A DNA stretch of 64,000 nucleotides, from NCBI GenBank assembly GCA_016212885.1, contig JACRDO010000162.1:4985-68984 (forward strand), in the 5' to 3' direction. Below, piece after piece: positions 12,077 to 37,981 of this stretch. Made by a program: the position numbers and the translations under genes. Under the pieces are notes generated by a model. The model did not search any database, was not told the DNA's origin, and saw only the letters and a program-made list of their open reading frames with translations. This DNA comes from Elusimicrobiota bacterium. GTDB taxonomy: Bacteria > Elusimicrobiota > Elusimicrobia > UBA1565. Within the stretch, counting starts at the first letter, position 1. Each line of letters opens with the position of its first letter.

Positions 12077-14418
12077 GAAGTCTCGTTCCCCCGGAAGCAC
12101 GGCCCCAGCAGCCACGACAAACCGATGCCCAGGAGCATGCTGAGGCCGAATGTGTGCAGAGCCGGGGTCCGGCTGAGCGCCAGCAGCCCGAAGGACAGCA
12201 GCGTGGTCATGGCGGCCAGCGAGGAACTCAGCAGGGCGACCCGGTGGTCGCCGGCGCGGCGGTCCTGGAGGAATATCCCATAATCGATCCCCGTGCTCAG
12301 AACGAGGGCCAGCCCCAGGATGCAGAACAGGTTCGAGTTCTGCCCGGTCAGGCCGAAAATGCCGAGCGTATAGAGCGACGCGAGCATCGTGGGGGCGACC
12401 ACCCTCCATGTCCGGCGCCGGTACGTCGCGAAGAGGCAGGCGGCCACCAGCAGATGGCCCAGGACCAGAAGCCGGCCGATGCCGATGCGCAAGCCCCGCA
12501 TCATCTTCGAAAGGTCGAAGAGGTGGTCCACGAAGACCGTCCCCGGCTGGCGCCCCGCCAGTTCCTTGAGCGCCTCTACGGACCGCGGCCCGCCGACACC
12601 GCTGAGAGTGACCGCCGCAGACCAGCCCTCCGCGGTCCGCCCCATCCACAGCGAACGGAAAGGCTCCGACAGCGGCGAATCCAGCCATGTCCGGGGCGTC
12701 AGGGGCGCTGGCGGCGGAACCTCGGCCTGGCGGCGGGCCAGCAGGGCCGCCTCGGGCGAACCCAGGCCGCCGAACAGCTTGGACGCCAAGGCGCCGTCCC
12801 GGTATATCCGCCGCCACATCAGCGCGCGATCGGCTTCCTGCCGTCGCAGCGAAGGCACGAACTGCGAGACGGACTGGAAGTCCGCGATATGCCCTTGCCG
12901 CCGGGCCGCCTCGAGGCCCTCGGCCAAGGTCTCCGAGCGCTCGAGCAGGGTCTGCTCGTCGGGCGCGCTCAGCAGGAAGAATTGGCCGGCCCCCGGCAGG
13001 CGCATGAGCCTTTCCACGCGTTCCTGTTCGCGCATCAGCTCCGAGGAAGGGATGAAGAGCCGGCGCACATCGTCGTCCGGGCGCAGCCGGGTCATGCCCC
13101 AGAAGGACAGGCCCAGCAGCCCCGCGATCGCCGCCATCATGCCCCAGCCGCGGTCCAGGCTCGGCCAACGGGCATGCGCCCGCTCGAGAAAACCGGGCAG
13201 GGGTCCTAGATGGACATCGGGCATGCGGCGGCTGAGCCCGGGCAGCCAAGCCGCGACGCTCAGCCACGCGCCGCCCAGGCCCAGGATGCTGAAGACAGCC
13301 ATCTCCCTGAGGATGGGGAACGGCAGGGCCGCCAGTACCGCATAGCCGACCAGGCTCGTCGTCAGTGCCATCCCCAGCGTCGGCAGGATGCCCTTAATCC
13401 GCGCCCCGGCGTCCCAGACCCGGGTTGGATCGGCGCAGCCCGATACGTAAAGGATGCCGTAGTCCACGGCCACGCCGATGACGCTCGTTCCGAAGACGAA
13501 AGTCAGAAGATGCAGACGTTCGAAGAACATCCGGCTCAGGCCCATGGCGAGGAGACAGCCGACGCCGATGGGAAGCATGACGAGGGCCAGGGGCTTGAAG
13601 GAGCCGAACGTCAGGAGCATCAGGAGGACGATCCCGAGCAGCGAGCCCACGGCGATTGTGGACATCTCACGCTGGGCCTGCCGGGAGGCTCGGGCGCTGT
13701 GCAGGACGAATCCGGCGCGCAGGACATCCTCGGCGCCCGCCTGCTTCGCCGCGCGCACGGCGGCGTCGAGCGCGTTCGAGAGAGCCTGCTGCTCGGCGAT
13801 GGAGGCTGGATGGCCGGACAGCTCCACGAACACGACCACCCATGCGCCGCCCCCCTCCGGGATCGTGAGCCGGTCTCCGGTTGCGCTCAGGGAGCTCCGG
13901 GACGCCGCTTCCAGCAGGTTCTCGGTGAACAAGCCGAAGGGATCGGATTCCAGCGGGGCCAGGCGCGGCGGCCCGATCGGGCTGTAGAGGCTCTGCGTGG
14001 CGCGTGAGAGCAGGGCCGAATCGGGCTCCTGGCGCAGACGCTCGCGCTGGGCCGGGGTGAGCAGGCGGTAGCGCCAAGGGAGATAGAAATCCCGGGCCGC
14101 GCCGAAGACGTCAGCCTCCAGCCGGGACATGACGTGCGCGATGCCGGCCCGGCCCTTGAGCGCGTCGGAACAGGCATCCGCGGCCCGGCCGGCCGCCTCT
14201 ATGTCCCGGTGCCGCAGCAGCACCACAACACGGCGGGACCCGGCCTCGGCCATGCGCCCGACCGCCTGACTCACCAGCGGGCGCCGGCTGTCGGTGGGCA
14301 GCAGGGCCATGAGGTCCGTCTCATAGCCCGTGCCGCGGGCGCGACTCCAAAGCAGGAGCCCCCCGGCCAGGGCGGTCAAGGCCGCGAGGATGAAGGGGAG
14401 TATCCGCGGCCTATTCAA
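12073..14418 (-). CDS. MMPL/RND-superfamily predicted exporter (ApeM/HpnN-like)
   Basis: 781 aa with two blocks of TM helices separated by large periplasmic loops, the typical RND/MMPL topology. Sits next to a LolA-like gene, as in APE clusters. Confidence 0.75.
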   Translation of the reverse strand: MNRPRILPFILAALTALAGGLLLWSRARGTGYETDLMALLPTDSRRPLVSQAVGRMAEAGSRRVVVLLRHRDIEAAGRAADACSDALKGRAGIAHVMSRLEADVFGAARDFYLPWRYRLLTPAQRERLRQEPDSALLSRATQSLYSPIGPPRLAPLESDPFGLFTENLLEAASRSSLSATGDRLTIPEGGGAWVVVFVELSGHPASIAEQQALSNALDAAVRAAKQAGAEDVLRAGFVLHSARASRQAQREMSTIAVGSLLGIVLLMLLTFGSFKPLALVMLPIGVGCLLAMGLSRMFFERLHLLTFVFGTSVIGVAVDYGILYVSGCADPTRVWDAGARIKGILPTLGMALTTSLVGYAVLAALPFPILREMAVFSILGLGGAWLSVAAWLPGLSRRMPDVHLGPLPGFLERAHARWPSLDRGWGMMAAIAGLLGLSFWGMTRLRPDDDVRRLFIPSSELMREQERVERLMRLPGAGQFFLLSAPDEQTLLERSETLAEGLEAARRQGHIADFQSVSQFVPSLRRQEADRALMWRRIYRDGALASKLFGGLGSPEAALLARRQAEVPPPAPLTPRTWLDSPLSEPFRSLWMGRTAEGWSAAVTLSGVGGPRSVEALKELAGRQPGTVFVDHLFDLSKMMRGLRIGIGRLLVLGHLLVAACLFATYRRRTWRVVAPTMLASLYTLGIFGLTGQNSNLFCILGLALVLSTGIDYGIFLQDRRAGDHRVALLSSSLAAMTTLLSFGLLALSRTPALHTFGLSMLLGIGLSWLLGPCFRGNETS

Positions 14419-15010
14419 AAGACGCGCTCTCGGCTCCGCTCAACTCCGCGCCCAGCTTCACGTCGCTGAAATCGATCACGGTGCGGTCGCCGTTGGCTTC
14501 CGATATCTCGATCTTTTCCAGGGTCTTGCCGCCCTGCAGGCGGATCTGGGCGACGACCTTGGCCACCAGGGCCTCCTTGGGCTTCAGCTCGGCCTTCCAG
14601 CGGCCCTCGACCAGCGGCGGCCCCGTGATGTCGAAATGCCGCTTGAGCTCGCCCACGTCCGCGGAGAAGACCGCGAAGAGGACCTTGCTGATCAACCGGA
14701 GAGCCGGCTGGTCCTCGGCCCGCATCCGGAAGCCCACTTTGCCGTCCTTGATCTGCGCGACCTCGACGGCAGTGATCTTTATGGCGCTGAGCGCCGGCTT
14801 GAGCGTGCGCCAGAGCGCGCCCTTGTCCTTCGCCAGCACGAAATCGCCCGAGGAACGCAGGGGCCTCTTGATGATTTTGATGGTTTTGACCTGTTGGAAG
14901 CGTCCCCGCAGGACGGTGAAGGGGGTCAACTGCTTCTGGATGTCCTCGACGATGCCTGGATGCGCCGTCGCGGGAAGAATGACCAGCAGGATTGCGAGCA
15001 GGGCCTTCAT
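14411..15010 (-). CDS. LolA-like outer-membrane lipoprotein carrier family protein (ApeL-like)
   Basis: Signal peptide (MKALLAILLVILPATAHP). About 200 aa beta-rich periplasmic protein. Overlaps the exporter start by 8 nt. Confidence 0.6.
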   Translation of the reverse strand: MKALLAILLVILPATAHPGIVEDIQKQLTPFTVLRGRFQQVKTIKIIKRPLRSSGDFVLAKDKGALWRTLKPALSAIKITAVEVAQIKDGKVGFRMRAEDQPALRLISKVLFAVFSADVGELKRHFDITGPPLVEGRWKAELKPKEALVAKVVAQIRLQGGKTLEKIEISEANGDRTVIDFSDVKLGAELSGAESASFE

Positions 15011-15145
15011 GGTTCATGATGTTACACAACCGTTCTTCTGCCGTCAAACCCTGCCTTGCCCCCGGCAGGCTATCTCTTAATGACCCATTTTGTTAAACTA
15101 AAAACTCGTCCGTCAACGACGAGCCAAACATCCGCGCGATCCGGC

Positions 15146-17767
15146 ATGAAGATCAAGCTCATCTATCCGAAGTGGCCGAAACTGGCGCGGCAGACGGAGT
15201 TTCATCTGCCGCCGCACGGCCCGGTCTGCTTCGCAGCCACCGTGCCCGCCGAAGACGAACTCGTCTTCACCGATGAGAACCTGGAGGCCATCGACTTCGA
15301 CGACCAGGCCGACCTCATAGCCATCTCCTGCCTGCTGACCTGCCAGATGCCGCGGGGTTGGGAGATCGCGGACCGCTTCCGCGCGCAGGGCGTCCCCGTC
15401 ATCTTCGGCGGCATCGGGACCATGCTGCATGCCGCGCAGACCCTGCAGCATGCGGATTCGGTCTTCCTGGGAGAGACCGAAGGCCGCTTCGGAGAGGTCA
15501 TCGCAGACATGAAGCGCAAGAGCCTCAAGAAGGCGTATGACTTCCAGCACGATTTTCCCGACATAAGGATGGTGGGGCCGGCGCGGCGGGACATACTCAA
15601 CCGGAAGCTGTACAACTACCGCGGCGTGCAGATGGTCGACCTCCTCCACGCCTCGCGCGGCTGCCGGTTCGACTGCTACCCCTGCTGCGCGAGATTCCTG
15701 GGCGGCCGCTCATTCAGGCCGCGGCCGATCGACCAGGTGCTCCGGGAAGTCGAATCCATCGACAACAACCGTCTATTCTTCGTGGACAACTCGATGGCCC
15801 AGAACGACCAGTGGGAGAAGAACCTGTTCCAGGCCCTGGCCCCGCTCAAGAAGCATTGGATCTGCCATCCCATCAAGGACGACGACGAGATCCTGGACCT
15901 TGCGGCCCGAGCGGGCTGCTGGTATGTCTACCAGGCGATATTCGACGTCTCCGAGCGCATCCGCAGCCGCGTCAAGCGCCTGAAGGAGCGCGGCATCGGC
16001 GTCGAAGGGACGATCCTGCTCGGCCTTGACGAGCAGGACGAGGACGACATCAAACGGCTCGTCGACTTCCTGCTCGATATCGAGCTGGACCTGGCCGAGT
16101 TCACCGTCCTGACGCCGTTCCCGCACACCCCGGCCCGCGAAGCCCTGGCAAAGGCGGGCCGCATCCTGAGCGACGACTGGCGGCGCTACACCGGCGGGGA
16201 GGTTGTGTTCCAGCCGGCGCGGATGTCCCCGGCGAAGCTCCAGGAGCTCTACCACTACGCCTGGGACGCCTTTTACCCGAACAACAGCCAGAACCTGGCG
16301 ATGGCCAAGCTCTTCATGAAGGTCGTCGGGAAGGAACGGGGCGAGGGGACGTATCGCCGGCCGCAGCTGCTCTCAGCGGGATGGGAGGCGAAGCGCCGCC
16401 GTCGCGCAATGAAGATCCTGCTGATCTCGCCGAACCTGACGCTGTCCCCCTATCCGGTCTACCCCCTCGGCATGGGCATGATCGCCGCGGCCCTGCAGGA
16501 CGCCGGCCACGAGGTCCGGCAGCTCGATCTCCTGCAGCTGGGCCCCGGTCTCGACGCCGTGGCGCGCGAGGTCCGGCGGTTCAAGCCAGGCCTCGTCGGG
16601 CTCTCGGTGCGCAACATCGACAACGTCAACCTCCTGAACGAACAGCACTACATCCGGAACATCCGGGCCGTCGTTGCCAAGGTCCGGGAGGCCACGGACG
16701 CGCGGGTGCTGCTCGGCGGCGCCGGGTTCTCGCTGATGCCGGAGCTCATCCTGCGGGAGGTCGGGGCGGATTACGGCATCGTCGGAGAGGGGGAGGCCCT
16801 GGCGGTCGAGTTCGCGCGCAACGCCCAGGCGGGGACGTTCCCCGCGGAGCCCATCATCCGCTCGGACGGCTGGATCCCCGGCGGCCGGATCGGCCCGGCG
16901 CTCTACGACGAGAGCCTGCTCCCGTTCTACCTGAGCAGGGGCCGCATCGCCTCGGTCCAGACCAAGAGGGGCTGCGCCTCCCGGTGCGTGTACTGCACCT
17001 ATCCCCTGCTCGAAGGCGCGCGCCTGCGCGCGAGGGAGCCCCGGTCCGTCGTGGACGACATCGTGCGCCTGCGCGACCGGCACCAGGCGAAGCACATCTT
17101 CTTCGTGGACTCGGTCTTCAACGACGACGAAAAGACCTATCTCGCAGTCGTCGCGGAGATGGAGCGCCGAGGCGTCTGCATGCCCTGGACCGGCTTCTTT
17201 AAGCCTGGCGGCCTCGACGATGAGACCGTCGCGCGCATGAAGCGCACGGGCTTCGCGGCGGCCGAGATCGGCGCGGACGCCGCGTGCGACACGACGCTCC
17301 TCAGGCTCGGGAAGGATTTCACATTCCGCGAGGTCAGGGAATGCAACGACCTCCTCGCGCGCCACGGGGTCGCTGCGGCCCACTACTTCATGTTCGGAGG
17401 CCCCGGCGAGACGCCGGAAACCGTGCGGGAGGGCATACGGAACGTCCTGGGGCTCAAAGACTGCGTGGCCGTCATCTTCATGGGAATCCGCATCCTGCCC
17501 GATACGCCGCTGGCTCGGCTCGCGGTCAAGGAGGGCGTCATCGCTCCCGGCCAGGGGCTCCTGGACCCGGCCTACTATGTATCCCCGGGCGTAGACCGGG
17601 AATGGCTCGAGCGCGCTTTGACCGAGGCCTTCGCAGGGGTGCGCCGCTGCGTATTCCCCCCCGACTCCCTGGACGGCCATGTCATGGCCTTCCACAAGAT
17701 GGGCTACACGGGCCCCCTGTGGGAGATGCTCCTCCCCCGCAGAAGTCTTAGAAGAAGAAGACCTTGA
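15146..17767 (+). CDS. tandem B12-binding radical SAM protein (two complete class-B rSAM modules in one polypeptide)
   Basis: Module 1: MKIKLIYP... B12-like domain plus CxxxCxxC (SRGCRFDCYPC). Module 2 begins at MKILLISPN..., with a second B12-like domain plus CxxxCxxC (KRGCASRCVYCTYP). There is no stop between the modules. Alternative starts are at 15056 and 15083. Confidence 0.75.
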   Translation: MKIKLIYPKWPKLARQTEFHLPPHGPVCFAATVPAEDELVFTDENLEAIDFDDQADLIAISCLLTCQMPRGWEIADRFRAQGVPVIFGGIGTMLHAAQTLQHADSVFLGETEGRFGEVIADMKRKSLKKAYDFQHDFPDIRMVGPARRDILNRKLYNYRGVQMVDLLHASRGCRFDCYPCCARFLGGRSFRPRPIDQVLREVESIDNNRLFFVDNSMAQNDQWEKNLFQALAPLKKHWICHPIKDDDEILDLAARAGCWYVYQAIFDVSERIRSRVKRLKERGIGVEGTILLGLDEQDEDDIKRLVDFLLDIELDLAEFTVLTPFPHTPAREALAKAGRILSDDWRRYTGGEVVFQPARMSPAKLQELYHYAWDAFYPNNSQNLAMAKLFMKVVGKERGEGTYRRPQLLSAGWEAKRRRRAMKILLISPNLTLSPYPVYPLGMGMIAAALQDAGHEVRQLDLLQLGPGLDAVAREVRRFKPGLVGLSVRNIDNVNLLNEQHYIRNIRAVVAKVREATDARVLLGGAGFSLMPELILREVGADYGIVGEGEALAVEFARNAQAGTFPAEPIIRSDGWIPGGRIGPALYDESLLPFYLSRGRIASVQTKRGCASRCVYCTYPLLEGARLRAREPRSVVDDIVRLRDRHQAKHIFFVDSVFNDDEKTYLAVVAEMERRGVCMPWTGFFKPGGLDDETVARMKRTGFAAAEIGADAACDTTLLRLGKDFTFREVRECNDLLARHGVAAAHYFMFGGPGETPETVREGIRNVLGLKDCVAVIFMGIRILPDTPLARLAVKEGVIAPGQGLLDPAYYVSPGVDREWLERALTEAFAGVRRCVFPPDSLDGHVMAFHKMGYTGPLWEMLLPRRSLRRRRP

Positions 17768-18302
17768 CCTGCGCGAGCAGCGTAACGACGTTGGCGCTAT
17801 AGTCGATGTAGGCGCTCGACATCGCGGTGTGGTCCCACCGCAGTTCCGGGCCGATCGCGATGCGCTCCTTGACGAAGAAGTCCGCCCCGCCGTTGAACCC
17901 GAAGCCGACGATGCCGATGGAATCCGTGCCCGTCATCGTGATGCCTCCGACGGTAAATCCCGTCCCCACGTACGGGACGACCTTCGGGTTCGGGAAGAAG
18001 TGCCATTTCACGAACGGCGCCACTGAGGTGTAGGTCAGGGTAGTGCCGCCGGATTTCATCCCCGTCACGAAGAACGCGGTGCCGACCTCGAGGGGCTGCG
18101 TGATGAAGTACCCGACCCCGCCTCCCAGAAGCGACTGGCTCGATGACCCCCCCTGACTGGGAGATGTCTTCGAGTAGGAGCCCAGGAGGCTGAGTTCCAG
18201 GTTCCCTTTCGATATGAAATCGTCCAAGGCCGACGCCGGGACGAACGGCGCCGTCATCGTGGCCACGAGCAGCAAGAGCCCGACGGTCTTCTTCGTCGTC
18301 AT
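17748..18302 (-). CDS. outer-membrane beta-barrel protein (OmpW/OmpA-like small porin family)
   Basis: Signal peptide, alternating amphipathic beta-strand pattern and a C-terminal ...VKVFFF (terminal Phe). Preceded by AGGAGGG. Confidence 0.65.
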   Translation of the reverse strand: MTTKKTVGLLLLVATMTAPFVPASALDDFISKGNLELSLLGSYSKTSPSQGGSSSQSLLGGGVGYFITQPLEVGTAFFVTGMKSGGTTLTYTSVAPFVKWHFFPNPKVVPYVGTGFTVGGITMTGTDSIGIVGFGFNGGADFFVKERIAIGPELRWDHTAMSSAYIDYSANVVTLLAQVKVFFF

Positions 18303-18370
18303 TGCACCCTCCTATAATACATTACAATCCTGCGGCGGATATTAGCATATCTGTGCGCAGCTTGGGTCTC

Positions 18371-20233
18371 CTACCGGAGGGTGACGGTGAGATCGGAGTC
18401 GAAGGTGGGGGTCTGCTCCCGGTTCTGGCGGCGGGCTTCGTCCTGTACGCGGGGCTGCAGGTACTCGAAGAGGCTCTTGGTGGTGATCCGGCCCGACGCA
18501 TCCTTGGCCTCGCCATTCAATCCCTTGAGGAGGAAGTAGGTGAATATCCCGTGGGACGCCTCCTTGTAGGTCGTCGTGATCTCGTCGGCCGAGGCCGCCG
18601 TCAGGAGGGACAGCTTGCCGCCGTGCCTCTTCTCGATGTCCACCCGGGTGACGAGCGGCCGCGCGCCTTGGGCCAGCACGGACCGGCCGCCCGCGCCCGA
18701 GAAGCAGGCGTCGAGCAAGATCACGACCTCACCCGCCTGGAGCGCGGCCAGAGCGTTGTAGAGCCGCTTGACCGGGTAGGCTGTGTCCGAGAGGAAGCCC
18801 GGGTCCCCGTCCCAGGGGACCAGGAAGGCCTCCCCCGTCTTCGGGTCCGGCGCGCCGTGCCCGGAGTAATAGAAGAACACGCGGCTCGAGGGCTTCACGT
18901 TGCGCGGCAGCCAGGACTCGAGGTACTTCTTGAACGACGCGAAGCCCGCCTGCGCGCCGGCGAGGTGGATGATGTTGCGCCGCGGGACGCCCAGCGCCTC
19001 GATATGGGAGAGGACGGCCCCCGCGTCCCGCTCCGCGAAATCAGCCTTGGGGATGGTCGAGTAGCCCTCTATCCCGATCACCAACGCGAAGTCGTCTTCG
19101 CGCGGGGCGGCCTTGTATGCCGCAAGGACGGGTGAGGGCGCCGGCGGCGCCGGACGCTCCTCCGCGCGCGGCGCGTCGGCGCGCTGCCTCGCGGCCGATG
19201 CGACGGCGGCGGGCGGGGGCAGGCCGCGAATCCGCCAGGCGGAGATCTTTCCGTCATTGCCCGCCGCCGCAAGCCACTGCCCGTCGCGGCTGAGCGCGAC
19301 CGAGACGACCGCCGAGTCCTGCGGGAGGGCCGTGATCTCCGCCTTCCGGCCGACGTCCCAGAGGTGAACGGTTTTGTCCGGGCCGCCCGACGCGGCCAAA
19401 CGTCCGCCGTCGTCCAAGGCGACGGAGACGACCTCCTGCATGTGGCCGGAGAAGACGGCGAGCTCCTCGCCGGTCGAGGCGCTGCGCAGCTTCACGAGGT
19501 GGCTCCAGACGGGCGCTCCGGCGCGCGCGCGCCGGCTGCCTTCCCGGCTCTTGACTTCGGTGAGTCCCATCGCGAAGATGTCGGACCCCGCCGAGAAGGC
19601 GACGGAAACGACCTCCCCGTACCGGCTCGCGGACTCGCTCAGGGTCCTGCGCTCCTTCCTCCCGGCCACATCCCACAGGCGGACCGTCTTGTCGCCGCTC
19701 GCCGAGATGAGGCCCTGGCCGTCCGGAGTGAAGGTCAGCGCGAGGATCTTCCCCTCATGGCCCGTCAGCCGGCCCTGGCTCTTGCCGAACTTGACGTTCC
19801 AGAGCTCGATGGTCCCGCCGTCGTCCCCTGAGGCGACGGTCGCGCCGTCCGGGCTGAAGGCCACGGCCCCGACCGATTTGGAGAGCCCCGTGATCGACTG
19901 GACGGCCCGTCCGCTCGCGACCTCCCAGAGCATGACGGTCCGGTCGTCGGCTCCCGTGGCCAGCGTCCGCCCGTCGGGAGCGATCGCCGCGGCGCGGACA
20001 CGGCTTCGGTGCCCCTGGAGGGCGGCAAGCCGGGTCCCCTTATCGAGGTCCCAGACGGATATCGTTTTGTCGTCCCCGATGGACACGAGCCCGCCGGCGG
20101 GGCCGAACGCGAGCCCCCGGATGCCCCTGCCGGCCATCAGGACGTGCTGAAGGTCGCAGGAGATCGCGGACTCCTGCGAACCCAACGGGGCGGGGAGGCT
20201 TAGGGCGGCGAGGACCAGCCATACGGCGATCAT
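18371..20233 (-). CDS. secreted WD40-repeat / caspase-like (peptidase C14) fusion protein
   Basis: Signal peptide. About 7 WD40 repeats (GH...WD/WN/WE motifs). The C-terminal caspase fold has a His-Cys dyad (FFYYSGHGAPD ... VVILLDACFSG). Confidence 0.75.
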   Translation of the reverse strand: MIAVWLVLAALSLPAPLGSQESAISCDLQHVLMAGRGIRGLAFGPAGGLVSIGDDKTISVWDLDKGTRLAALQGHRSRVRAAAIAPDGRTLATGADDRTVMLWEVASGRAVQSITGLSKSVGAVAFSPDGATVASGDDGGTIELWNVKFGKSQGRLTGHEGKILALTFTPDGQGLISASGDKTVRLWDVAGRKERRTLSESASRYGEVVSVAFSAGSDIFAMGLTEVKSREGSRRARAGAPVWSHLVKLRSASTGEELAVFSGHMQEVVSVALDDGGRLAASGGPDKTVHLWDVGRKAEITALPQDSAVVSVALSRDGQWLAAAGNDGKISAWRIRGLPPPAAVASAARQRADAPRAEERPAPPAPSPVLAAYKAAPREDDFALVIGIEGYSTIPKADFAERDAGAVLSHIEALGVPRRNIIHLAGAQAGFASFKKYLESWLPRNVKPSSRVFFYYSGHGAPDPKTGEAFLVPWDGDPGFLSDTAYPVKRLYNALAALQAGEVVILLDACFSGAGGRSVLAQGARPLVTRVDIEKRHGGKLSLLTAASADEITTTYKEASHGIFTYFLLKGLNGEAKDASGRITTKSLFEYLQPRVQDEARRQNREQTPTFDSDLTVTLR

Positions 20234-20263
20234 AGCGCCCGGCCTCTTTCTGATGCGCGCGCC

Positions 20264-20823
20264 CTACGGAATGATCGCGCCAATATACTCGGCGATGATC
20301 CTTCCCATGTCGGAGGGCAATGTGCGGTCGCTGCTGCCCATCGTCCACGCGGCGCCCATGGCATTGTTGGCCGTCGAGAGCAGCTTTTCGCGCACCACCT
20401 CTCCGGTGGCGGCATCGGTGAGCGTCAACTGCACGCTCATGTCCGAACTGCCCACCATGGCCCCGAGCCAGAGCCGCGCGCCGCCGCTCACGATCCTCAT
20501 GTTGACGACCGAGCCTTTCAGGAGGAGGGCATTTTTGTAATTCGCGCCGGCCTTCGCCTTCGTCACCGTATCGAAGAGCCTTTTTGATATCAAGGCCGAC
20601 ATGGCGGAGCTCTCGCATTCAGACACCGCCTTGGGGTAGTCCGTCGCGAGCTTCGGATCTATCTCGAAATCCTGGAAGACGAGCTTCGAATACCGCTGCG
20701 TCAGGGGAACCTCTTTTTCCTGCACCCTGAGGGCCCGATTGCCCCCGCAGGCGGACAAGACCATCGCTCCCAACAGAACGGCCGCGGACAGGACCAGATT
20801 TCCGAATGAAGTCCTTGTATTCA
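20264..20823 (-). CDS. lipoprotein, function unknown
   Basis: Start at MNTRTSF (ATG 20823) preceded by GGAGGAG. Lipobox LSACGG. Confidence 0.55.
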
Positions 20824-20867
20824 TGATAAGGCTCCTCCCCATTTTGGCCAGACGTACCGCGCGCAGC

Positions 20868-21530
20868 TCAATAATAATCCCCATCCCCGCCCCTAAATAA
20901 CCTGAAGGCGACGCCCAATTGGACCATCAAGCCGCTGAAATCCAGTTCATTGCGGTTCGCGACCCAGCCGTGATGGGTCGTCACCTTCAGGGGCGGCATG
21001 GCAAGATAGTCCAAGCTCGCCTGGAAGGAACACGTCTTCCCGACATTGAAGACCACGCCAAGCATGGGGCCCGTCCCGGGCTCGATGCTCACGTCGCCGG
21101 AATCGGATGATATCCCGGTCCATTGGGGCCTGATGTTCACGACGCTCAGATGCGGGCCGAGGGTGACGACCCGGCCGAGCTTGAACTTCAACGCCGCATC
21201 GCCGAAATAGAGGGGCCCGTAAAATGCCCCGACGAATCCGCCGGCGCCGCCGGTCAAGTCCAGGTAGGCGAAAGGCATCTCGATGCCCACCCCGATCTTC
21301 GTTGTCGGGGACCAGCTCATCCCGCTATTGACCGTATCCGTATAGCTATAGGAATACCACCCCCCATAGTACGACTTGCTGACATTGAAGCCCGTGAGAT
21401 TACTGCTGTTCAGGAAGTTCCCCGGCATGATGTCGAAGACCATGTTCACGCCCGCGAACGCCCTGCACGGAACAAGACATGCGGCCAGAGCGAGCGCGGA
21501 GATCGCCCAGGCTTTGTTGATCGCTTTCAT
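20868..21530 (-). CDS. secreted beta-rich protein, possible outer-membrane protein
   Basis: Signal peptide MKAINKAWAISALALAACLVPCRAFAG. Gly/aromatic-rich amphipathic strands. Preceded by AGGGAGAG. Confidence 0.5.
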   Translation of the reverse strand: MKAINKAWAISALALAACLVPCRAFAGVNMVFDIMPGNFLNSSNLTGFNVSKSYYGGWYSYSYTDTVNSGMSWSPTTKIGVGIEMPFAYLDLTGGAGGFVGAFYGPLYFGDAALKFKLGRVVTLGPHLSVVNIRPQWTGISSDSGDVSIEPGTGPMLGVVFNVGKTCSFQASLDYLAMPPLKVTTHHGWVANRNELDFSGLMVQLGVAFRLFRGGDGDYY

Positions 21531-21603: not shown

Positions 21604-22839
21604 TCATTTATGCCATCTCTTGAAGATGAGAGAAGTGTTCACGCCGCCGAACGCGAAGTTGTTGGTCATCAAGTACTCGACCTGGAGCTCGCGGGGGGCG
21701 CCGATGACGTAGTCCAGCTTCCCGCAGCGCGGATCCACGTTCTTCAGATTGAGCGTGGGAGCGACCCATCCCTCCCGCATCATATGGACGGATATCCAGG
21801 CTTCCAGCGCGCCGCACGCGCCCAGCGTGTGCCCCATGTAGCTCTTCAAGGAGCTGATCGGCAGGCGCTCGCCGAATATCCGCTGCGTGGCCTGGCTTTC
21901 CGCGATGTCGCCGAGCTCCGTAGCGGTGCCGTGCGCGTTGACATAGCCGACGGCCGAAGGATCCAGCCGGGCATCCTCCAAGGCCAGGCGCATCGCCCGC
22001 TCCATCCCCTCGCTTGAGGGGTTCGTCATGTGCACCCCGTCGCAGTTGGTGGCGTAGCCTGCCAGCTCGGCGAGGATGGCCGCACCTCGGGCTTTGGCAT
22101 GGTCAAAGTCCTCCAGAACCAGAGTGGCCGAACCTTCGCCCACCACCAGGCCGTCCCGTTCCACGTCGAAGGGCCGCGGCGCGCAATGAGGCGTCTCGTT
22201 CTTGGTGGAGGTGGCGTACATGATGTCGAACACCACGGCGTCAATCACATGGAGTTCCTCCGCGCCGCCGCCCACCATGACGGCTTGTTTGCCGTACTTC
22301 ACGGACTCGTAGGCGTACCCGATGCCCTGGCTCCCGGCCGTGCAGGCCGAGCAGGTGGGGATCACCCGGCCCTTGATGCCGAAAAACTGGCCGAGGTTCG
22401 CGGCGCAGGTGTGGCTCATCAGTTGGATGTAGGTGACCGGCGAGACGCCCTTGACGCTCTTGTTGACATAGATCAGCCGGCAGTATTCCTCCATCGCGGG
22501 CGGGGAGCCGGAGGTGGACCCGAACGAGATCCCGGTCGATCCGTCGCTCAGGATGGGAGAATCCAGCAGCTTCGCTTCCATCAGCGCGAGCTCGGTGGAG
22601 CGCGCCGCCATCAGGGCCACCCGTCCCATGGTGCGGATCTTCTTGCGCGGGTAGTGGTCCGGCGCGGCGAAATCCGCCACCCGGCCTGCCAGCCGGGTCA
22701 GCATGCCCTCGACCCCGCCCCAATCCGGCATCGCGACGATGCCGGACTTCATCCCCCGCAGGTTCTCCCGCACCGTCGGCCAATCCTGCCCGAGCGGGCA
22801 GAGCCCCGCCATCCCAGTCACGACGACCCGTTTGGTCAC
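21604..22839 (-). CDS. fabF: beta-ketoacyl-ACP synthase (KAS I/II family)
   Basis: Active-site Cys in IPTCSACTAGS; His motifs (YVNAHGTAT, KSYMGHTLGACG); C-terminal NNFAFGGVNTSLIF. GTG start at 22839 overlaps the fabG stop (ATGTTGTGA). Confidence 0.8.
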   Translation of the reverse strand: MTKRVVVTGMAGLCPLGQDWPTVRENLRGMKSGIVAMPDWGGVEGMLTRLAGRVADFAAPDHYPRKKIRTMGRVALMAARSTELALMEAKLLDSPILSDGSTGISFGSTSGSPPAMEEYCRLIYVNKSVKGVSPVTYIQLMSHTCAANLGQFFGIKGRVIPTCSACTAGSQGIGYAYESVKYGKQAVMVGGGAEELHVIDAVVFDIMYATSTKNETPHCAPRPFDVERDGLVVGEGSATLVLEDFDHAKARGAAILAELAGYATNCDGVHMTNPSSEGMERAMRLALEDARLDPSAVGYVNAHGTATELGDIAESQATQRIFGERLPISSLKSYMGHTLGACGALEAWISVHMMREGWVAPTLNLKNVDPRCGKLDYVIGAPRELQVEYLMTNNFAFGGVNTSLIFKRWHK

Positions 22840-23561
22840 AACATGCCCCCGTTCACGGAGATGCACTGGCCCGTAATATAGGCCGCTCCTTGAGAGAAGA
22901 GGAAGGCGACGGCGGCGGCCACCTCCTCCGGCTGGCCCACGCGATGCAGCGGGATGGCCTTCACGATTGAATCCAGCGGCAGCCCATCGATCATCTCGGT
23001 CTCGATGAGGCCCGGTGCGACGCAGTTGACGGTGATCTGCCGCTTCCCCAGCTCCCTGGAGAGCGCCTTGGCCGCGCCGATGATCCCCGCCTTGGCCGCG
23101 CTGTAGTTGACCTGGCCGCGGTTGCCCGCGATCCCGGACAGCGATGACATGGCGACGATGCGCCCGCCCTGCTTTGCGCGAACCATTTCCATGGCGAGCG
23201 GCGAGAGGACGTTGAAGAACCCGTCGAGGTTCGTCCGCAGGACTATGTCCCATTGCTCGCCGGTAAGCGCGGGGAACGGCGCGTCCGCGATGGCGCCGGC
23301 GTTGCACACGACGCCCCAGAAGACGCCGCGGCGCTGGATGTCTTCGGCCAGCGCACGACGCGTCCCTGGGCGGTCGCAGACGTCGAAGGGCAGGAGACTC
23401 CCGGAACCGCCGCCGGCCAGGATGCGCGCGAGAGCCTCGTTCGCCGCGGCCTGGCTGCTCTTGTAGTTGACCGCCACATCGAATCCGTCGGCCGCCAAGC
23501 GCAGGGCGGTGGCGAGCCCGATGCCGCGGCTTGCGCCCGTGACCAGAACTCTTCTCTTCAA
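22836..23561 (-). CDS. fabG: 3-oxoacyl-ACP reductase (SDR family)
   Basis: TGASRGIG cofactor motif and a YSAAK catalytic motif. 241 aa. Confidence 0.85.
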   Translation of the reverse strand: MKRRVLVTGASRGIGLATALRLAADGFDVAVNYKSSQAAANEALARILAGGGSGSLLPFDVCDRPGTRRALAEDIQRRGVFWGVVCNAGAIADAPFPALTGEQWDIVLRTNLDGFFNVLSPLAMEMVRAKQGGRIVAMSSLSGIAGNRGQVNYSAAKAGIIGAAKALSRELGKRQITVNCVAPGLIETEMIDGLPLDSIVKAIPLHRVGQPEEVAAAVAFLFSQGAAYITGQCISVNGGML

Positions 23562-24025
23562 AGCTCGCTCTCCTCAAGGAACCGCTCGATCTCCTTGGGC
23601 CGATACAGGTTCAACTGAGCGGCGACGAGCGTCCGCCGGGTTACGGCGTCCTGAACCGAACAATCGAAGACGAACAACTCCCCCTCCCCCCAGACGCGCC
23701 GCGCCGACACGTGCAGCGTCTGCCCCGGGGTGAAGCCCCGCGTCCGGATGTCGACGCGCCGCGAACCCAGCAGAAAGCCGACACTGGGCCCTACGCCGCG
23801 GGCCCGGTCGGCCATCCCGGCGTGGGCGGCCACGGCCTGCGCCATGTATTCCAGGCCGACCCAGGCCGGGACTTCCCCGTCCTCCAGGAACATCGACTCC
23901 GGGGTGAGAACCGCATCGCAGACGGTCCCCTGCGCGTCATGGCTGATGACGCGGCGCAAGAGCACCATGCGGCCGGAATGCGGCACGACGTCCCTTGCCT
24001 CTACCGGGGGTGTAAGAGTGTCCAT
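23558..24025 (-). CDS. hotdog-fold 3-hydroxyacyl-ACP dehydratase (FabZ/FabA-like, ApeI-like)
   Basis: About 150 aa with an FabZ-like core (GRMVLLRRVISHD ... AWVGLEYMAQ). Lies between the KS-like gene and fabG. Confidence 0.6.
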   Translation of the reverse strand: MDTLTPPVEARDVVPHSGRMVLLRRVISHDAQGTVCDAVLTPESMFLEDGEVPAWVGLEYMAQAVAAHAGMADRARGVGPSVGFLLGSRRVDIRTRGFTPGQTLHVSARRVWGEGELFVFDCSVQDAVTRRTLVAAQLNLYRPKEIERFLEESEL

Positions 24026-24780
24026 TGCCAGCGCCTTTGCCCGATGCGCATCTCAAGCGCGTCCTGCCCGCCGACGTGCCAGCGCAGGAAGTCCAGCGCG
24101 GGTATCCCGATCGTCCCGTCCGACCCTGCGCCGTCTCCGCCTGCCGGCCCGCCGAATCCCAGGGCGACCCGGCCTGAGCCCGGCTCCCCTTCGGCCTCCA
24201 GGAGCAGGGCCACGGAATACGGGATGCAGCGCCCTCCGACCAGTCCGTTGAACGGTTCCGGGAGGACGTCCTCCACGGCGACGAGCAGGACCGGCCGGGC
24301 CGGGTCATGCCTCAACATGCCGGCCGCGTCCAGGAAACCGTAGCAGAACGAGGCCTCGCCTCCGGCGATGGACCGGGAGGCCTGGCGGTTCTTCGCCACG
24401 AGACCCCAGTACCCGGCAGCGGTGTGATGCACCGAATTGGTGAAATCGGCAGGCAGGAGCGTGTCTTTCTCGCTGAGCGCCTTCAAGAGGCGCGCCATCA
24501 CCGCCATGTCTCCATGCCGGGATGCGACGACCAGGCGCACCGCGTCGCAGGGCGCCCCCGCGTCCCGGCAGCACGAGTAGGCGGTGTTGAGCGCCATGCG
24601 GTTGAAGCGGCTCATGCGGCGGCCCAGCATGGGGGCGATGAACCCCACGTCGGGGGCGCCGTCGAGCGGGATTTCCCCGGGGGACTTCAGGAACCCGAGC
24701 CATTTCGACTTATCGCTCAGACCAGGCGCCCAGGCGGCCCACTCACGCACTGAGACCGGGGGGACGCCCGCAGCTACCAC
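24001..24780 (-). CDS. beta-ketoacyl synthase N-terminal-domain-like protein (chain-length-factor-like partner)
   Basis: About 259 aa resembling only the N-terminal half of a KS (APMLGRRMSRFNRMALNTAYSC...). GTG start at 24780 is preceded by GGGAGG and overlaps the upstream KS stop (GTGGTAG). The track reports only the wrong-frame composite 24001..26043. Confidence 0.5.
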   Translation of the reverse strand: MVAAGVPPVSVREWAAWAPGLSDKSKWLGFLKSPGEIPLDGAPDVGFIAPMLGRRMSRFNRMALNTAYSCCRDAGAPCDAVRLVVASRHGDMAVMARLLKALSEKDTLLPADFTNSVHHTAAGYWGLVAKNRQASRSIAGGEASFCYGFLDAAGMLRHDPARPVLLVAVEDVLPEPFNGLVGGRCIPYSVALLLEAEGEPGSGRVALGFGGPAGGDGAGSDGTIGIPALDFLRWHVGGQDALEMRIGQRRWQWTLLHPR

Positions 24781-25994
24781 CGTTGCCTCCCTATGACCAC
24801 TGAGCAGTTGCTGCCGCCGAAGCCGAACGAATTGCTCATGAACGCGCGTCCCGCGCCGGTCTCGAGGAATTGGCCGGGCTTCGTCAGGGCGAGCGCGCAG
24901 AGGGCCGAGTCTTTCTCGCCGTCCCAGCAATGGGGCGGCAGGAGGATCTTCCCGTCGATGGGACTGGCCAGGGCGAGCCAGCAGAAACCGACCTCCATGG
25001 CGCCGGCTGCCCCCAGCGTATGCCCGATCAGCGGCTTGGTCGAACTCGCCGGCACTCCGGGCAGTATCCGTGAGACCGCCTTGCTCTCCATCTTGTCGTT
25101 GAGCTCCGTCCCCGTCCCATGTAGGTTGATGTAGTCGATGGCGCCGGCCTCCAAGCCCGCGTCCGCCAGCGCGGCGGCCATGGCCGCCGCCGCGCCGACC
25201 CCTTCCGGATCGGGGGCGGACATATGGTGGGCGTCGGAGGACTCTCCGACGCCCAGGAGCTGGATCCCGCCTTCGGCTCGGGTTAGAAGGAACAGCGCCG
25301 CCCCCTCCCCGACGTTGAACCCGCGGCGGTTGCGGCTCATGGAGTTGCACGGCGACTGCGAAGTCGCCTGCAGGGAGCCGAAGCCCTGGACGGTCAGCCG
25401 GCATAGGGAATCCGCGCCCCCCGTCATGACCGCGTCGCAGAGCCCCATCTCCAGCAGCGCCTGCGCGCAGGAGAAGACCTTGGCGCTGGAGGAACAGGCG
25501 GTCGAGAGGGTATAGGCCGGGCCCGAGACCCCGCAGCACTCGGCCAGGAAGAGCGCCAGTCCGCCCAACTCGTGCTGGGAGTAGGAGTAATCCGCGGGCG
25601 CCAGCCCCGTCTCCCGCCACGACGCATAGGCGGCCTCCGAGGCCGCGACTCCCGATGTGCTGGAGCCCATGACCACGCCGACGCGGGCGGGCCCGTGCTC
25701 CCGGACCGCGGCGCGCACCTCCGCCTCGATCTGCCGCAGCGCGCACAGGGCGAGCGAATTGTTGCGGCAGCGATAGCGCCTCAGGCCGTCCGGCACCTGG
25801 GGAAGCGCGGCGTCCACCCGTCCGACGCGGACCGACTGGCCGGGGAAGAGTTCCTCGTCCATGACCAGGGAGCCCTGGTCGCCTTGCGCCAGCCGGGTCC
25901 AGATCGTCCTGGTGTCCGACCCCAGCGAGTTCACCATCCCAAGGGCGGACAAGCGGCTGATGCCGCGCCCCGTCGCTTCCGTCCTGGGCCTCAC
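24774..25994 (-). CDS. beta-ketoacyl-ACP synthase (ApeO-like KS)
   Basis: Active-site Cys (TLSTACSSS); His motifs (INLHGTGTELND, KPLIGHTLGAAG); FGFGGSNCSVVI C-terminus. Start overlaps the lyase stop by 4 nt. Confidence 0.8.
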   Translation of the reverse strand: MRPRTEATGRGISRLSALGMVNSLGSDTRTIWTRLAQGDQGSLVMDEELFPGQSVRVGRVDAALPQVPDGLRRYRCRNNSLALCALRQIEAEVRAAVREHGPARVGVVMGSSTSGVAASEAAYASWRETGLAPADYSYSQHELGGLALFLAECCGVSGPAYTLSTACSSSAKVFSCAQALLEMGLCDAVMTGGADSLCRLTVQGFGSLQATSQSPCNSMSRNRRGFNVGEGAALFLLTRAEGGIQLLGVGESSDAHHMSAPDPEGVGAAAAMAAALADAGLEAGAIDYINLHGTGTELNDKMESKAVSRILPGVPASSTKPLIGHTLGAAGAMEVGFCWLALASPIDGKILLPPHCWDGEKDSALCALALTKPGQFLETGAGRAFMSNSFGFGGSNCSVVIGRQRW

Positions 25995-37442: not shown

Positions 37443-37444
37443 TC

Positions 37445-37981
37445 ATGAGATTGAAGCACGCAATGATTTTTCTCACCATCATCTTGTCAGCGACTCTGGT
37501 GCTCGACGTTGAGTCTTTCGTGGATTTGACTCGTTTTTCCCATCTCCGGCATCTCTCTCCGGGCTATACACCTTTGATTGACGGGGATTTTTTCAACGGC
37601 CGCAGTGTCTTCTCTGCGTTCACTGACATGCTTTCCCTAATCATCCTTGTCGTAATGATTGTGATGATTCGACGGGCCTATACTGGCCGTTTGAATAGGC
37701 TGCTGCGTGTCGCTGTGCCAATTCCTTTTGCGCTCCTAATTCATTGCTTACTTGATAATCAAATAGATACCTATATTTATGAGCGGAACTTTTCCGGCGT
37801 TCTTGGAATCTTTTCCTGGACTCTGCTGTATGCAATCCCTGGATATTTGATAATAGGCCTGATCCTGTTTCTTTTGATAATGCTTACCTGCTATCCGGCG
37901 GGAATTTTGATGGACAAACTCCTGCTGTACGTGACATGCAGGATGAGCAAACGGTGCGCCGACACCGTTGAGCTGAAATAG
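37445..37981 (+). CDS. hypothetical polytopic membrane protein in a low-GC island
   Basis: Start 3 nt after the upstream stop. About 4-5 TM helices. GC about 45%. Confidence 0.4.
   Translation: MRLKHAMIFLTIILSATLVLDVESFVDLTRFSHLRHLSPGYTPLIDGDFFNGRSVFSAFTDMLSLIILVVMIVMIRRAYTGRLNRLLRVAVPIPFALLIHCLLDNQIDTYIYERNFSGVLGIFSWTLLYAIPGYLIIGLILFLLIMLTCYPAGILMDKLLLYVTCRMSKRCADTVELK

What the first reader, a model, noticed from the sequence alone, without database searches (positions are those of the whole stretch)
18371..20233. Secreted WD40-caspase fusion flanked by outer-membrane proteins inside the lipid locus
A signal-peptide-bearing protein with about 7 WD40 blades N-terminal to a C14 caspase-like domain with an intact His/Cys dyad (SGHG, DACFSG). 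Bacterial caspase-like proteases with repeat sensor domains are linked to regulated proteolysis and cell-death or defence modules. This one is exported, its domain order is reversed relative to the common protease-then-repeat layout, and it sits between an OmpW-like barrel, a lipoprotein and a secreted beta-protein, all coupled to the pigment operon. It may process outer-membrane cargo linked to the lipid product. No gasdermin-like partner is evident.
Basis: partly seen in the sequence, partly recalled or inferred. Interest (0 to 1): 0.6.

Follow-up and report, generated by a model that had tools for sequence, protein, structure and literature searches.

The report
Exported WD40–caspase protease with barrel partner
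This gene encodes a caspase-like cysteine protease, fused to a seven-bladed WD40 propeller and most likely exported to the cell envelope; it travels with a small outer-membrane barrel gene and was inserted into the pigment-lipid gene cluster only in this genome, so it is a member of a large uncharacterised family, not a part of pigment biosynthesis.

Summary
ORF 18371..20233 (-) encodes 620 aa: an N-terminal hydrophobic leader, a 7-bladed WD40 propeller (aa 25-336), a disordered Pro/Ala linker, and a C-terminal Peptidase_C14 domain (aa 381-620). His459 and Cys510 align with the metacaspase catalytic dyad.

- **Domain order.** A C-terminal caspase is the rule in this subfamily: 150 of the top 150 representatives, and 6,222 representatives at E<=1e-30.
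- **Export.** Members are nearly all exported, mostly as lipoproteins. Their N-terminal modules are swappable: Ank in 51 of 106, PDZ in 7, WD40 in 3, Sel1/TPR in 3.
- **Link to the aryl-polyene (APE) cluster.** It is not conserved. Orthologs in three other Elusimicrobia lineages lie elsewhere. A related APE cluster has the same gene order but holds a GIY-YIG gene in this slot.
- **Conserved neighbour.** Only the 184-aa outer-membrane barrel (17748..18302) is conserved, adjacent in 4 of 4 lineages in three arrangements.

Best reading: a periplasmic, probably Arg/Lys-specific orthocaspase-like protease. The propeller would recruit its target, and the protease would work with the barrel. It is a new variant of a known kind, of moderate interest.

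The parts
18371..20233 (-). Whole ORF (620 aa plus stop): leader, WD40 propeller, linker, Peptidase_C14
   Evidence: An identical protein is on record as 'MAG: caspase family protein [Elusimicrobia bacterium]' (P0001).
20174..20233 (-). N-terminal hydrophobic leader (aa 1 to about 20, MIAVWLVLAALSLPAPLGSQ), the presumed Sec signal peptide. The cleavage site is inferred, not predicted by a tool.
   Evidence: Orthologs have canonical leaders: MKNRNTAFSAALLTLSVLSLTAPAGSQE, MRPETKFFAAGLSLSALLFSAPCRAQS, and MRRSQGSVIAVLAALAG from an upstream ATG. The AAGAGG Shine-Dalgarno-like motif lies 9 nt before the ATG.
20252..20254 (-). In-frame ATC codon at the position where the GWA2_69_24 ortholog has an ATG start (IRKRPGAMIAV versus MRRSQGSVIAV). 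It is either a shifted start or a rare ATC start that would restore a positively charged n-region.
19226..20161 (-). Seven-bladed WD40 beta-propeller (aa 25-336). Blade 5 carries a low-confidence insertion at aa 229-240.
   Evidence: Pfam WD40 E 9.9e-50. AF2 model with 28 strands. Foldseek 5yzv TMt 0.91.
19094..19225 (-). Pro/Ala-rich linker (aa 337-380), predicted disordered
   Evidence: pLDDT below 50 for aa 341-368; sequence
18374..19093 (-). Peptidase_C14 (caspase/metacaspase-like) domain, aa 381-620
   Evidence: Pfam E 2.9e-12. AF2 domain model pLDDT 85.7, pTM 0.87. Foldseek: MALT1 paracaspase E 1.4e-12, GSU0716, Yca1, TbMCA2, caspase-7.
18857..18859 (-). Catalytic His459 codon (YYSGHG)
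   Evidence: Aligns with the metacaspase HYSGHG. Conserved in 113 of 113 family members.
18704..18706 (-). Catalytic Cys510 codon (DACFSG). Asp508, two residues upstream, and Asp403 (19025..19027) align with the acidic S1-pocket Asp residues of metacaspases.
   Evidence: Asp403, Asp508 and Cys510 are each conserved in 113 of 113 members.
18623..18700 (-). Flexible loop after the catalytic Cys (aa 512-537) with the conserved basic residues R517 and R525. It is a candidate autoprocessing or activation loop; this is inference.
   Evidence: pLDDT below 50. R517 is R/K in 111 of 113 members and R525 in 113 of 113.
17748..18302 (-). 184-aa small outer-membrane beta-barrel (leader, C-terminal ...VKVFFF). 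It is the only conserved neighbour of the WD40-caspase.
   Evidence: Pfam OMP_b-brl E 4.8e-10. Homologs at 61%, 45% and 57% (partial) identity lie next to the ortholog in L001, L004 and L084, in three arrangements.
20264..20884 (-). DUF4410 lipoprotein (lipobox VLSAC). It is a neighbour only in this genome. Its real start is probably an internal Met.
   Evidence: Pfam E 6.5e-10. No homolog in any of 83 related loci nor in L091. Sequence.
20868..21530 (-). 220-aa leader-bearing beta-rich protein ('beta220'). It belongs to the APE cluster, not to the caspase module.
   Evidence: No Pfam hit. Near-orphan. A 45%-identical homolog sits at the same position after the ketosynthase in the related APE cluster L091.

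Best explanation
The gene encodes a clan-CD, family-C14 cysteine endopeptidase of the bacterial orthocaspase or metacaspase-like kind. The proposed mechanism has these steps:
1. The protein is exported through the Sec pathway into the periplasm.
2. The N-terminal 7-bladed WD40 propeller, joined by a flexible Pro/Ala linker, binds the target or a partner.
3. The C-terminal domain cleaves with the His459/Cys510 dyad, most likely after Arg or Lys, because the two acidic S1-pocket Asp residues are conserved.
4. The enzyme probably starts as a zymogen and is activated by cleavage in the flexible loop after Cys510, which carries conserved basic residues.
5. It works together with the adjacent small outer-membrane beta-barrel, as tether, gate or substrate.

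The protease-barrel pair is a portable two-gene module. In this genome it landed in a variable slot of the aryl-polyene cluster and is not an intrinsic part of pigment-lipid biosynthesis or export.

Shown here: domain identities, dyad alignment, fold, family-wide leaders, synteny.
Inferred: periplasmic location, P1 specificity, autoprocessing, and the functional link with the barrel.
For: - Domains and fold.
- Dyad and S1 Asp residues: aligned to solved metacaspases and invariant in 113 family members.
- Export of orthologs and paralogs: three WD40-type orthologs have classical Sec leaders, and Ank-type paralogs have lipoboxes.
- Export across the family: 76 of 106 members have a lipobox and 17 more a hydrophobic N-terminus. 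Most of the remaining 13 are over-extended ORFs.
- Modular N-termini on one conserved protease domain (60-78% identity): Ank 51, PDZ 7, WD40 3, Sel1/TPR 3 of 106.
- Barrel adjacency in 4 of 4 lineages despite rearrangement. It is co-directional downstream in the window. It is divergent upstream in L004 and L084. In L001 it is divergent with one gene between. The word-indexed search found this barrel subfamily only in such loci.
- Independence from APE: and the related cluster L091. The canonical E. coli APE cluster ApeA-R lists no protease or porin (PMC8253772).
Against: - No signal-peptide predictor could be run.
- With the ATG start the window protein's leader has no positively charged n-region.
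- In this genome the block lies on the same strand as the APE ketosynthase. The gaps are short (73, 30 and 68 bp) and no terminator-like site lies in them. Co-expression with the pigment genes, and a lineage-specific co-option, therefore cannot be excluded.
- The barrel adjacency rests on four related lineages and could partly be inherited synteny.
- No substrate is known for any member of the subfamily.
- P1 specificity and autoprocessing rest on alignment alone.
Confidence: 0.6

Rival explanations
1. One reading: the protease is a functional accessory of the aryl-polyene locus. It would process outer-membrane cargo or export factors linked to the lipid product, together with the barrel, the DUF4410 lipoprotein and beta220.
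For: - It lies between the APE biosynthesis genes (KS, KR, DH) and the export genes (LolA-like, MMPL, DUF3261), on the same strand, with short gaps and no terminator-like sites in them.
- beta220 really is conserved in a related APE cluster.
Against: - Orthologs in three other lineages sit in unrelated contexts.
- None of 79 subfamily loci has APE genes nearby.
- The related APE cluster L091 lacks DUF4410, the caspase and the barrel, and holds a GIY-YIG gene in that slot.
- The canonical APE gene set has no protease.
Confidence: 0.12
2. Cell-death or anti-phage effector of the kind formed by cytoplasmic caspase-like proteases with repeat sensors (caspase-NACHT-WD40, EACC1-type, gasdermin-activating proteases, CHAT/Craspase).
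For: - Weak hits to the PADLOC 'caspase' profile (E 1.8e-12) and to a HEAT-ARM candidate profile.
- NCBIfam caspase_w_EACC1 hit at 75.5 bits.
- Tandem arrays with diversified recognition modules in relatives resemble conflict systems.
Against: - The protein is exported, so it cannot reach cytoplasmic targets.
- No NTPase, gasdermin, EACC1 or CRISPR partner is present in the window or in related loci.
- The EACC1 score is far below the cut-off of 140.
- None of the neighbours hits PADLOC.
Confidence: 0.08
3. Surface or extracellular nutritional or adhesive protease, gingipain-like in role. It would degrade environmental proteins, and the repeat modules would bind prey or host proteins.
For: - The family is almost entirely lipoprotein or secreted, and expanded to as many as six copies per locus in anaerobic groundwater lineages.
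- It is a clan-CD protease, like gingipains and clostripain (own knowledge).
Against: - The window protein has no lipobox and no recognisable outer-membrane secretion signal (sequence).
- WD40, Ank and PDZ are specific protein-binding modules, which argues against bulk proteolysis.
- There is a conserved pairing with a single small barrel and, in relatives, with DUF4384 proteins.
Confidence: 0.12
4. Catalytically inert scaffold (pseudo-protease) that only uses the caspase fold for binding.
For: Pseudo-orthocaspases exist in bacteria (PMC6426788, listed).
Against: His459, Cys510 and both S1 Asp residues are invariant in 113 of 113 members. This contrasts with the Tyr/Ser substitutions that define pseudo-orthocaspases.
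Confidence: 0.03

Closest known systems
Bacterial orthocaspases / metacaspase-like proteases (MEROPS C14B; e.g. Microcystis MaOC1; surveys PMC3501461, PMC5756287, PMC8283722)
   Same: - Peptidase_C14 domain with a His-Cys dyad and an acidic S1 pocket.
- A single chain with accessory protein-binding repeats.
- WD40 is the commonest accessory domain: 10.9% of prokaryotic homologs and 26% of cyanobacterial ones.
- N-terminal helices that may be signal peptides were already noted.
   Different: - The described cases mostly carry WD40 C-terminal to the protease, and those studied are cyanobacterial.
- Here the protease is C-terminal, the protein carries an export leader, it comes from Elusimicrobia, and it is paired with an outer-membrane barrel.
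- No member of this subfamily has been studied.
Type I metacaspases with solved structures (TbMCA2 4af8, Yca1 4f6o, AtMC4 6w8s) and GSU0716 (3bij)
   Same: - Best sequence-profile matches, E 2e-8 to 3e-6, with the dyad and both S1 Asp residues aligned.
- Fold match at E about 1e-11.
   Different: - Only 15-20% identity.
- No N-terminal Pro-rich or zinc-finger prodomain.
- The calcium-site residues were not examined.
- The sequence alignments stop soon after the Cys.
MALT1 paracaspase
   Same: - Top structural match of the domain model: E 1.4e-12, TMq 0.68-0.70.
- It is Arg-specific and has accessory binding domains (own knowledge).
   Different: It is a eukaryotic cytoplasmic signalling protease with death and Ig domains, at 18-20% identity. 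The likeness is one of fold, not of family.
Leader-bearing double-propeller WD40-caspase proteins of about 1,060 aa (metagenomic; e.g. P0018, P0068, P0087 'caspase family protein [Blastocatellia]')
   Same: - The same order: signal peptide, WD40, C-terminal caspase.
- 29-31% identity over 93% of the query.
   Different: - About 800 residues of WD40 repeats, enough for two propellers, instead of one.
- The caspase domain is only 25-30% identical, so it is a different C14 subfamily.
Ank-, PDZ- and DUF2846-caspase lipoproteins of Elusimicrobiota, Nitrospirota and Desulfobacterota (e.g. P0110, P0085, locus L003)
   Same: - The caspase domain is 60-70% identical, with the same C-terminal position and an export leader.
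   Different: - A lipobox instead of a Sec type-I leader.
- Ankyrin or other modules instead of WD40.
- Often in tandem arrays and next to a DUF4384 protein.
- No adjacent barrel homolog.

Membership tests
Peptidase family C14 (clan CD caspase/metacaspase fold) | Significant match to the Peptidase_C14 profile | tested here: met
   PF00656 E 2.9e-12, 47.2 bits against a cut-off of 21.4, covering profile positions 3-231 of 233
Peptidase family C14 (clan CD caspase/metacaspase fold) | Catalytic His and Cys at the canonical positions | tested here: met
   His459 (YSGHG) and Cys510 (DACFSG) align with HYSGHG and DSCHSG of AtMC4, Yca1 and MC9. Invariant in 113 of 113 relatives.
Peptidase family C14 (clan CD caspase/metacaspase fold) | Caspase/hemoglobinase alpha-beta-alpha fold | tested here: met
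   AF2 domain model pLDDT 85.7, pTM 0.87. Foldseek matches MALT1, GSU0716, Yca1, TbMCA2 and caspase-7 at E 1e-12 to 1e-9.
Orthocaspase / metacaspase-like (C14B) as opposed to caspase (C14A) | Acidic S1 pocket giving Arg/Lys P1 specificity | tested here: inconclusive
   Asp403 and Asp508 align with the metacaspase S1 Asp positions and are invariant. Specificity itself needs an enzyme assay.
Orthocaspase / metacaspase-like (C14B) as opposed to caspase (C14A) | Proteolytic activity and autoprocessing after a basic residue | not testable with these tools
   Only a conserved R/K-bearing flexible loop, aa 512-537, could be shown.
WD40 beta-propeller | Repeated WD40 units closing into a 7-bladed propeller | tested here: met
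   PF00400 E 9.9e-50. 28 strands, 7 blades. TMt 0.91 to 5yzv.
Sec-exported (periplasmic) protein | Cleavable N-terminal signal peptide | tested here: inconclusive
   The h-region is present (Kyte-Doolittle 10-residue maximum 2.88). Orthologs show canonical n-, h- and c-regions. SignalP or DeepTMHMM were not available, and the window's n-region lacks charge if the ATG is the start.
EACC1-associated caspase (NCBIfam NF047832) | Score at or above the curated cut-off, with an EACC1 partner | tested here: not met
   75.5 bits against a cut-off of 140. No partner among the neighbours.
Known anti-phage defence systems with caspase-like proteases (PADLOC) | A system-level set of co-located components | tested here: not met
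   Only single-domain hits were found: the 'caspase' profile at E 1.8e-12 covering 127 of its 453 positions, and a WD40-driven HEAT-ARM hit. All three neighbours are negative.
Aryl-polyene (APE) biosynthetic gene cluster component | Conserved presence in APE clusters of relatives or of the canonical cluster | tested here: not met
   Absent from the related cluster L091. Absent from the canonical ApeA-R list. Orthologs lie outside APE clusters. None of 79 subfamily loci is near APE genes.

The most novel reading that the evidence does not exclude
The C-terminal-caspase subfamily has 6,222 representatives at E<=1e-30. It could be an envelope-located recognition-and-cleavage system. Each copy would carry a different binding module (Ank, PDZ, WD40 or TPR) to detect a specific periplasmic or outer-membrane protein, such as an invading toxin, a phage component or a misassembled porin, and would then cleave it or a partner. 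The WD40 form would be gated by, or act on, its dedicated 8-stranded barrel. In this genome the module may additionally have been co-opted to remodel an outer membrane decorated with aryl-polyene lipid.
Probability: 0.1. Interest if true: 0.7.

Novelty: new variant of a known kind. Interest (0 to 1): 0.36.

Why it matters
Bacterial caspase homologs are mostly discussed as cytoplasmic cell-death or defence proteases. This case points to a very large, unstudied branch that is nearly all exported. It has one conserved protease domain and interchangeable protein-binding modules. It is abundant in Elusimicrobiota and also found in Nitrospirota, Nitrospinota and Desulfobacterota genomes recovered from metagenomes.

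The WD40 form offers a small, tractable entry point: two genes, the protease and its barrel. It could be used to ask what a periplasmic caspase-like enzyme cleaves.

The result also corrects a tempting over-reading. Position inside a biosynthetic cluster is not evidence of function when relatives show the slot to be variable.

Tried and rejected
1. Scanning the whole protein against Pfam hid the C14 hit behind 25 or more WD40-type families. The C-terminal part had to be scanned alone.
2. A single-sequence PDB search covered only the His (E 0.024). A 13-sequence profile was needed to align both catalytic residues.
The narrower A3 worked.
4. A look-up of the identical protein P0001 in the contig index found nothing, so the source record could not be read independently.
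5. beta220 and the barrel are near-orphans in the word-indexed search, with one distant hit each. The beta220 hit P0122 lies in an unrelated context.
6. A fold search with the full-length model returned only propellers. A separate domain model was needed for the protease.
7. Rfam and tRNA scans of the window found nothing.
8. The promoter and terminator scan gave counts no higher than in shuffled sequence.
9. A gasdermin-type partner was considered and rejected. beta220 has a leader and an aromatic C-terminus, and it is conserved in the APE cluster of a relative.
10. Clustering of neighbouring ORFs was noisy, because high-GC loci give many shadow ORFs. Only the DUF4384 cluster was clearly real.
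Full report
**1. What is there**

The minus-strand ORF 18371..20233 encodes 620 aa and has the codon bias of the window's genes (GC3 0.91).
- Pfam finds WD40 repeats (E 9.9e-50).
- When the C-terminal 281 aa are scanned alone, Pfam finds Peptidase_C14 (E 2.9e-12, 47.2 bits against a cut-off of 21.4).
- An AlphaFold2 model built on eight homologs (mean pLDDT 76.8) shows 28 strands between aa 25 and 336, which is seven four-stranded blades. It also shows a disordered Pro/Ala linker (aa 341-368) and an alpha/beta domain from aa 382.
- The propeller superposes on solved 7-bladed WD40 domains (5yzv, TMt 0.91).
- A separate model of aa 372-620 (pLDDT 85.7, pTM 0.87) matches MALT1 paracaspase (E 1.4e-12), GSU0716, yeast and trypanosome metacaspases, and caspase-7.

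**2. Active site**

A 13-sequence profile of the domain hits Arabidopsis metacaspase-4 (6w8s, E 2.1e-8) and other metacaspases.
- YSGHG aligns to HYSGHG and DACFSG aligns to DSCHSG.
- Asp403 and Asp508 align to the two Asp residues that, to my knowledge of TbMCA2, line the acidic S1 pocket.
- In an alignment of 113 family members, Asp403, His459, Asp508 and Cys510 are invariant.
- Two residues in the flexible loop after the Cys are almost always basic: R517 is R/K in 111 of 113 members and R525 in 113 of 113.

This argues for an active, Arg/Lys-directed enzyme and hints at activation by cleavage in that loop. Both points are inferences.

**3. Export**

No signal-peptide predictor was available.
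- The N-terminus MIAVWLVLAALSLPAPLGSQES is a hydrophobic stretch followed by a small-residue motif.
- The orthologs read MKNRNTAFSAALLTLSVLSLTAPAGSQE, MRPETKFFAAGLSLSALLFSAPCRAQS and, from an upstream ATG, MRRSQGSVIAVLAALAG.
- In the window, the codons before the ATG read IRKRPGA in frame. An ATC sits exactly where the GWA2_69_24 ortholog has its ATG. A Shine-Dalgarno-like AAGAGG lies 9 nt before the ATG. The start has therefore either shifted or is a rare ATC.
- Across the subfamily, 76 of 106 members carry a lipobox and 17 more a hydrophobic N-terminus. Most of the remaining 13 are over-extended high-GC ORFs.
- The WD40-caspase proteins of about 1,060 aa also begin with leaders.

Export is thus strongly supported by comparison, though not proven for this protein.

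**4. The family**

The identical protein is on record as 'MAG: caspase family protein [Elusimicrobia bacterium]'.
- *Full-length orthologs.* Three other lineages carry one: P0002 at 79%, and P0003 (Elusimicrobia GWA2_69_24) and P0004 at 65%.
- *Conserved protease domain.* It is 60-78% identical to domains fused to ankyrin repeats or to DUF2846, in lipoproteins that occur as tandem paralogs.
- *Genome scan.* A scan of one genome per species found 338 relatives. The best 80 are mostly Elusimicrobiota, followed by Nitrospirota, Nitrospinota and Desulfobacterota, with up to six copies per locus.
- *N-terminal modules.* Of 106 members, 51 have Ank, 7 PDZ, 3 WD40 and 3 Sel1/TPR.
- *Family size.* A profile search of 1.84 billion cluster representatives gives 6,222 hits at E<=1e-30. 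In all 150 top hits the caspase domain is C-terminal.
- *Domain order elsewhere.* At least 60 of the 120 best full-length hits are leader-bearing WD40-then-caspase proteins.

The 'reversed' order is unusual only against the cyanobacterial literature. There WD40 is the commonest accessory domain and usually lies C-terminal to the protease, although the reverse order has been noted.

**5. The locus**

The surrounding genes form an aryl-polyene/flexirubin-type cluster. Listed in order of decreasing coordinate:

| Gene product | Coordinates |
|---|---|
| AMP-ligase/ApeI | 28604..30532 |
| Acyltransferase | 27553..28554 |
| Aromatic ammonia-lyase | 25991..27556 |
| Ketosynthase (KS) | 24774..25994 |
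| Chain-length-factor-like KS partner (CLF) | 24001..24780 |
| ApeP dehydratase | 23558..24025 |
| Ketoreductase (KR) | 22836..23561 |
| Ketosynthase (KS) | 21604..22860 |
| beta220 | 20868..21530 |
| DUF4410 lipoprotein | 20264..20884 |
| WD40-caspase | 18371..20233 |
| Outer-membrane barrel | 17748..18302 |
| Double B12-radical-SAM gene, opposite strand | 15056..17767 |
| LolA-like | 14411..15010 |
| MMPL | 12073..14418 |
| DUF3261 | 11507..12079 |

Gaps within the block are short and hold no terminator-like site, so co-transcription with the ketosynthase is plausible in this genome.

**6. Is the pigment link real?**

Four tests argue against it.
- In GWA2_69_24 the ortholog follows a response-regulator gene. 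It lies near a FecR, DUF4384, LPP20 and WD40 operon.
- In L004 it lies between ribosomal and cell-wall housekeeping genes and thioredoxin/SurA. In L084 it is flanked by the barrel and a cupin-like gene.
- None of 79 subfamily loci has a homolog of the window's KS, lyase, ApeP, LolA-like, MMPL or radical-SAM genes within 8 kb, except one weak KS hit (27.5% identity, L050). None has a homolog of DUF4410 or beta220.
- Most directly, a related APE cluster (L091) has proteins 45-83% identical to the window's. It keeps the order lyase, KS, CLF, ApeP, KR, KS, beta220, radical-SAM (opposite strand), LolA, MMPL, DUF3261. Between beta220 and the radical-SAM gene it has only a 97-aa GIY-YIG gene.

L091 comes from the same JGI sample that holds a GWA2_69_24-like caspase locus on another contig.

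The canonical E. coli cluster lists no protease or porin. The block 17748..20884 is therefore an insertion into a variable slot. beta220 is the APE-associated envelope protein.

**7. The conserved partner**

The 184-aa barrel has a leader and ends in ...VKVFFF. Homologs lie next to the WD40-caspase in all four lineages, at 61%, 45% and 57% (partial) identity.
- In the window it is co-directional and downstream.
- In L004 and L084 it is divergent and upstream.
- In GWA2_69_24 it is divergent with one intervening gene.

The word-indexed search found this barrel subfamily nowhere else. Adjacency that survives rearrangement suggests a functional pair, but four related lineages are a small sample. 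In 16 of 80 loci of the wider subfamily, an exported DUF4384 protein sits beside the caspase genes. None is present in the window.

**8. Mechanism and rivals**

- *Best reading (confidence 0.6).* This is a Sec-exported periplasmic orthocaspase-like endopeptidase. The propeller selects the target. The His459/Cys510 dyad cleaves after a basic residue. Activation involves the loop at aa 512-537. The barrel serves as tether, gate or substrate.
- *APE cargo processing (0.12).* It fails the synteny tests but cannot be excluded as a local co-option.
- *Cell-death or defence effector (0.08).* It conflicts with export and with the missing partners. The EACC1-type model scores 75.5 against a cut-off of 140, and PADLOC gives only domain-level hits.
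- *Surface nutritional protease (0.12).* It fits the family's export and expansion. It fits less well with specific binding modules and a dedicated partner.
- *Inert scaffold (0.03).* It conflicts with the invariant dyad.

**9. Novelty and score**

WD40-caspase fusions and possibly exported prokaryotic caspase homologs have been catalogued since 2012, and the protein is already annotated as a caspase family protein. Three things are new:
- the recognition of a very large subfamily of exported proteins with a C-terminal caspase and swappable binding modules;
- the protease-barrel pairing of the WD40 form;
- the demonstration that its place in the pigment cluster is incidental.

I rate it a new variant of a known kind, with interest 0.36.

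Noticed in passing
window 20868-21530 (-); L091 6014-6679: The 220-aa leader-bearing beta-rich protein has no Pfam hit and is almost an orphan in 5.8 billion proteins. Even so, it is conserved (45% identity) directly after the last ketosynthase in a related Elusimicrobia aryl-polyene cluster. It may be a lineage-specific outer-membrane component of APE export.
   Followed up: partly
window 20252-20254 (-) and L001 9980-10003: An in-frame ATC sits exactly where the ortholog has an ATG start (IRKRPGAMIAV versus MRRSQGSVIAV). Either the start codon was lost and initiation moved 7 codons downstream, leaving a leader with no charged n-region, or ATC is used as a start.
   Followed up: partly
L091 6864-7157 (+): In the related APE cluster, the slot that holds DUF4410, the caspase and the barrel in the window is occupied by a 97-aa GIY-YIG family gene. 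The junction between beta220 and the radical-SAM gene therefore appears to be a variable insertion site.
   Followed up: partly
L003 4901-10351; L063, L067, L071, L072 and others: There are tandem arrays of two to six lipoprotein caspase paralogs with different N-terminal modules (Ank, DUF2846, PDZ, unknown). In 16 of 80 loci a roughly 270-aa exported DUF4384 protein lies directly beside them.
   Followed up: partly
window 15056-17767 (+), 4250-5752 (+), 8503-10269 (-), 5704-8415 (-): The APE-type cluster carries unusual tailoring genes: a 903-aa protein with two B12-binding/radical-SAM modules, conserved in the relative L091; a second B12-radical-SAM gene; an alpha/beta-hydrolase/radical-SAM/SPASM fusion; and a fusion of deacetylase, methyltransferase, GT2 and DUF2062. 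The product is probably not a plain aryl polyene.
   Followed up: no
window 35577-37981 (+): A low-GC island (about 51% against about 66%) has a 621-aa ORF with a TTG start and a 178-aa hydrophobic ORF. Neither has a Pfam hit. It looks horizontally acquired.
   Followed up: no
L001 3121-7244 (also L087-L090): In Elusimicrobia GWA2_69_24 the barrel separates the WD40-caspase unit from an operon encoding FecR, DUF4384, two LPP20-like lipoproteins and a second leader-bearing WD40 protein of 394 aa. This may be a larger envelope system linked to the protease.
   Followed up: no
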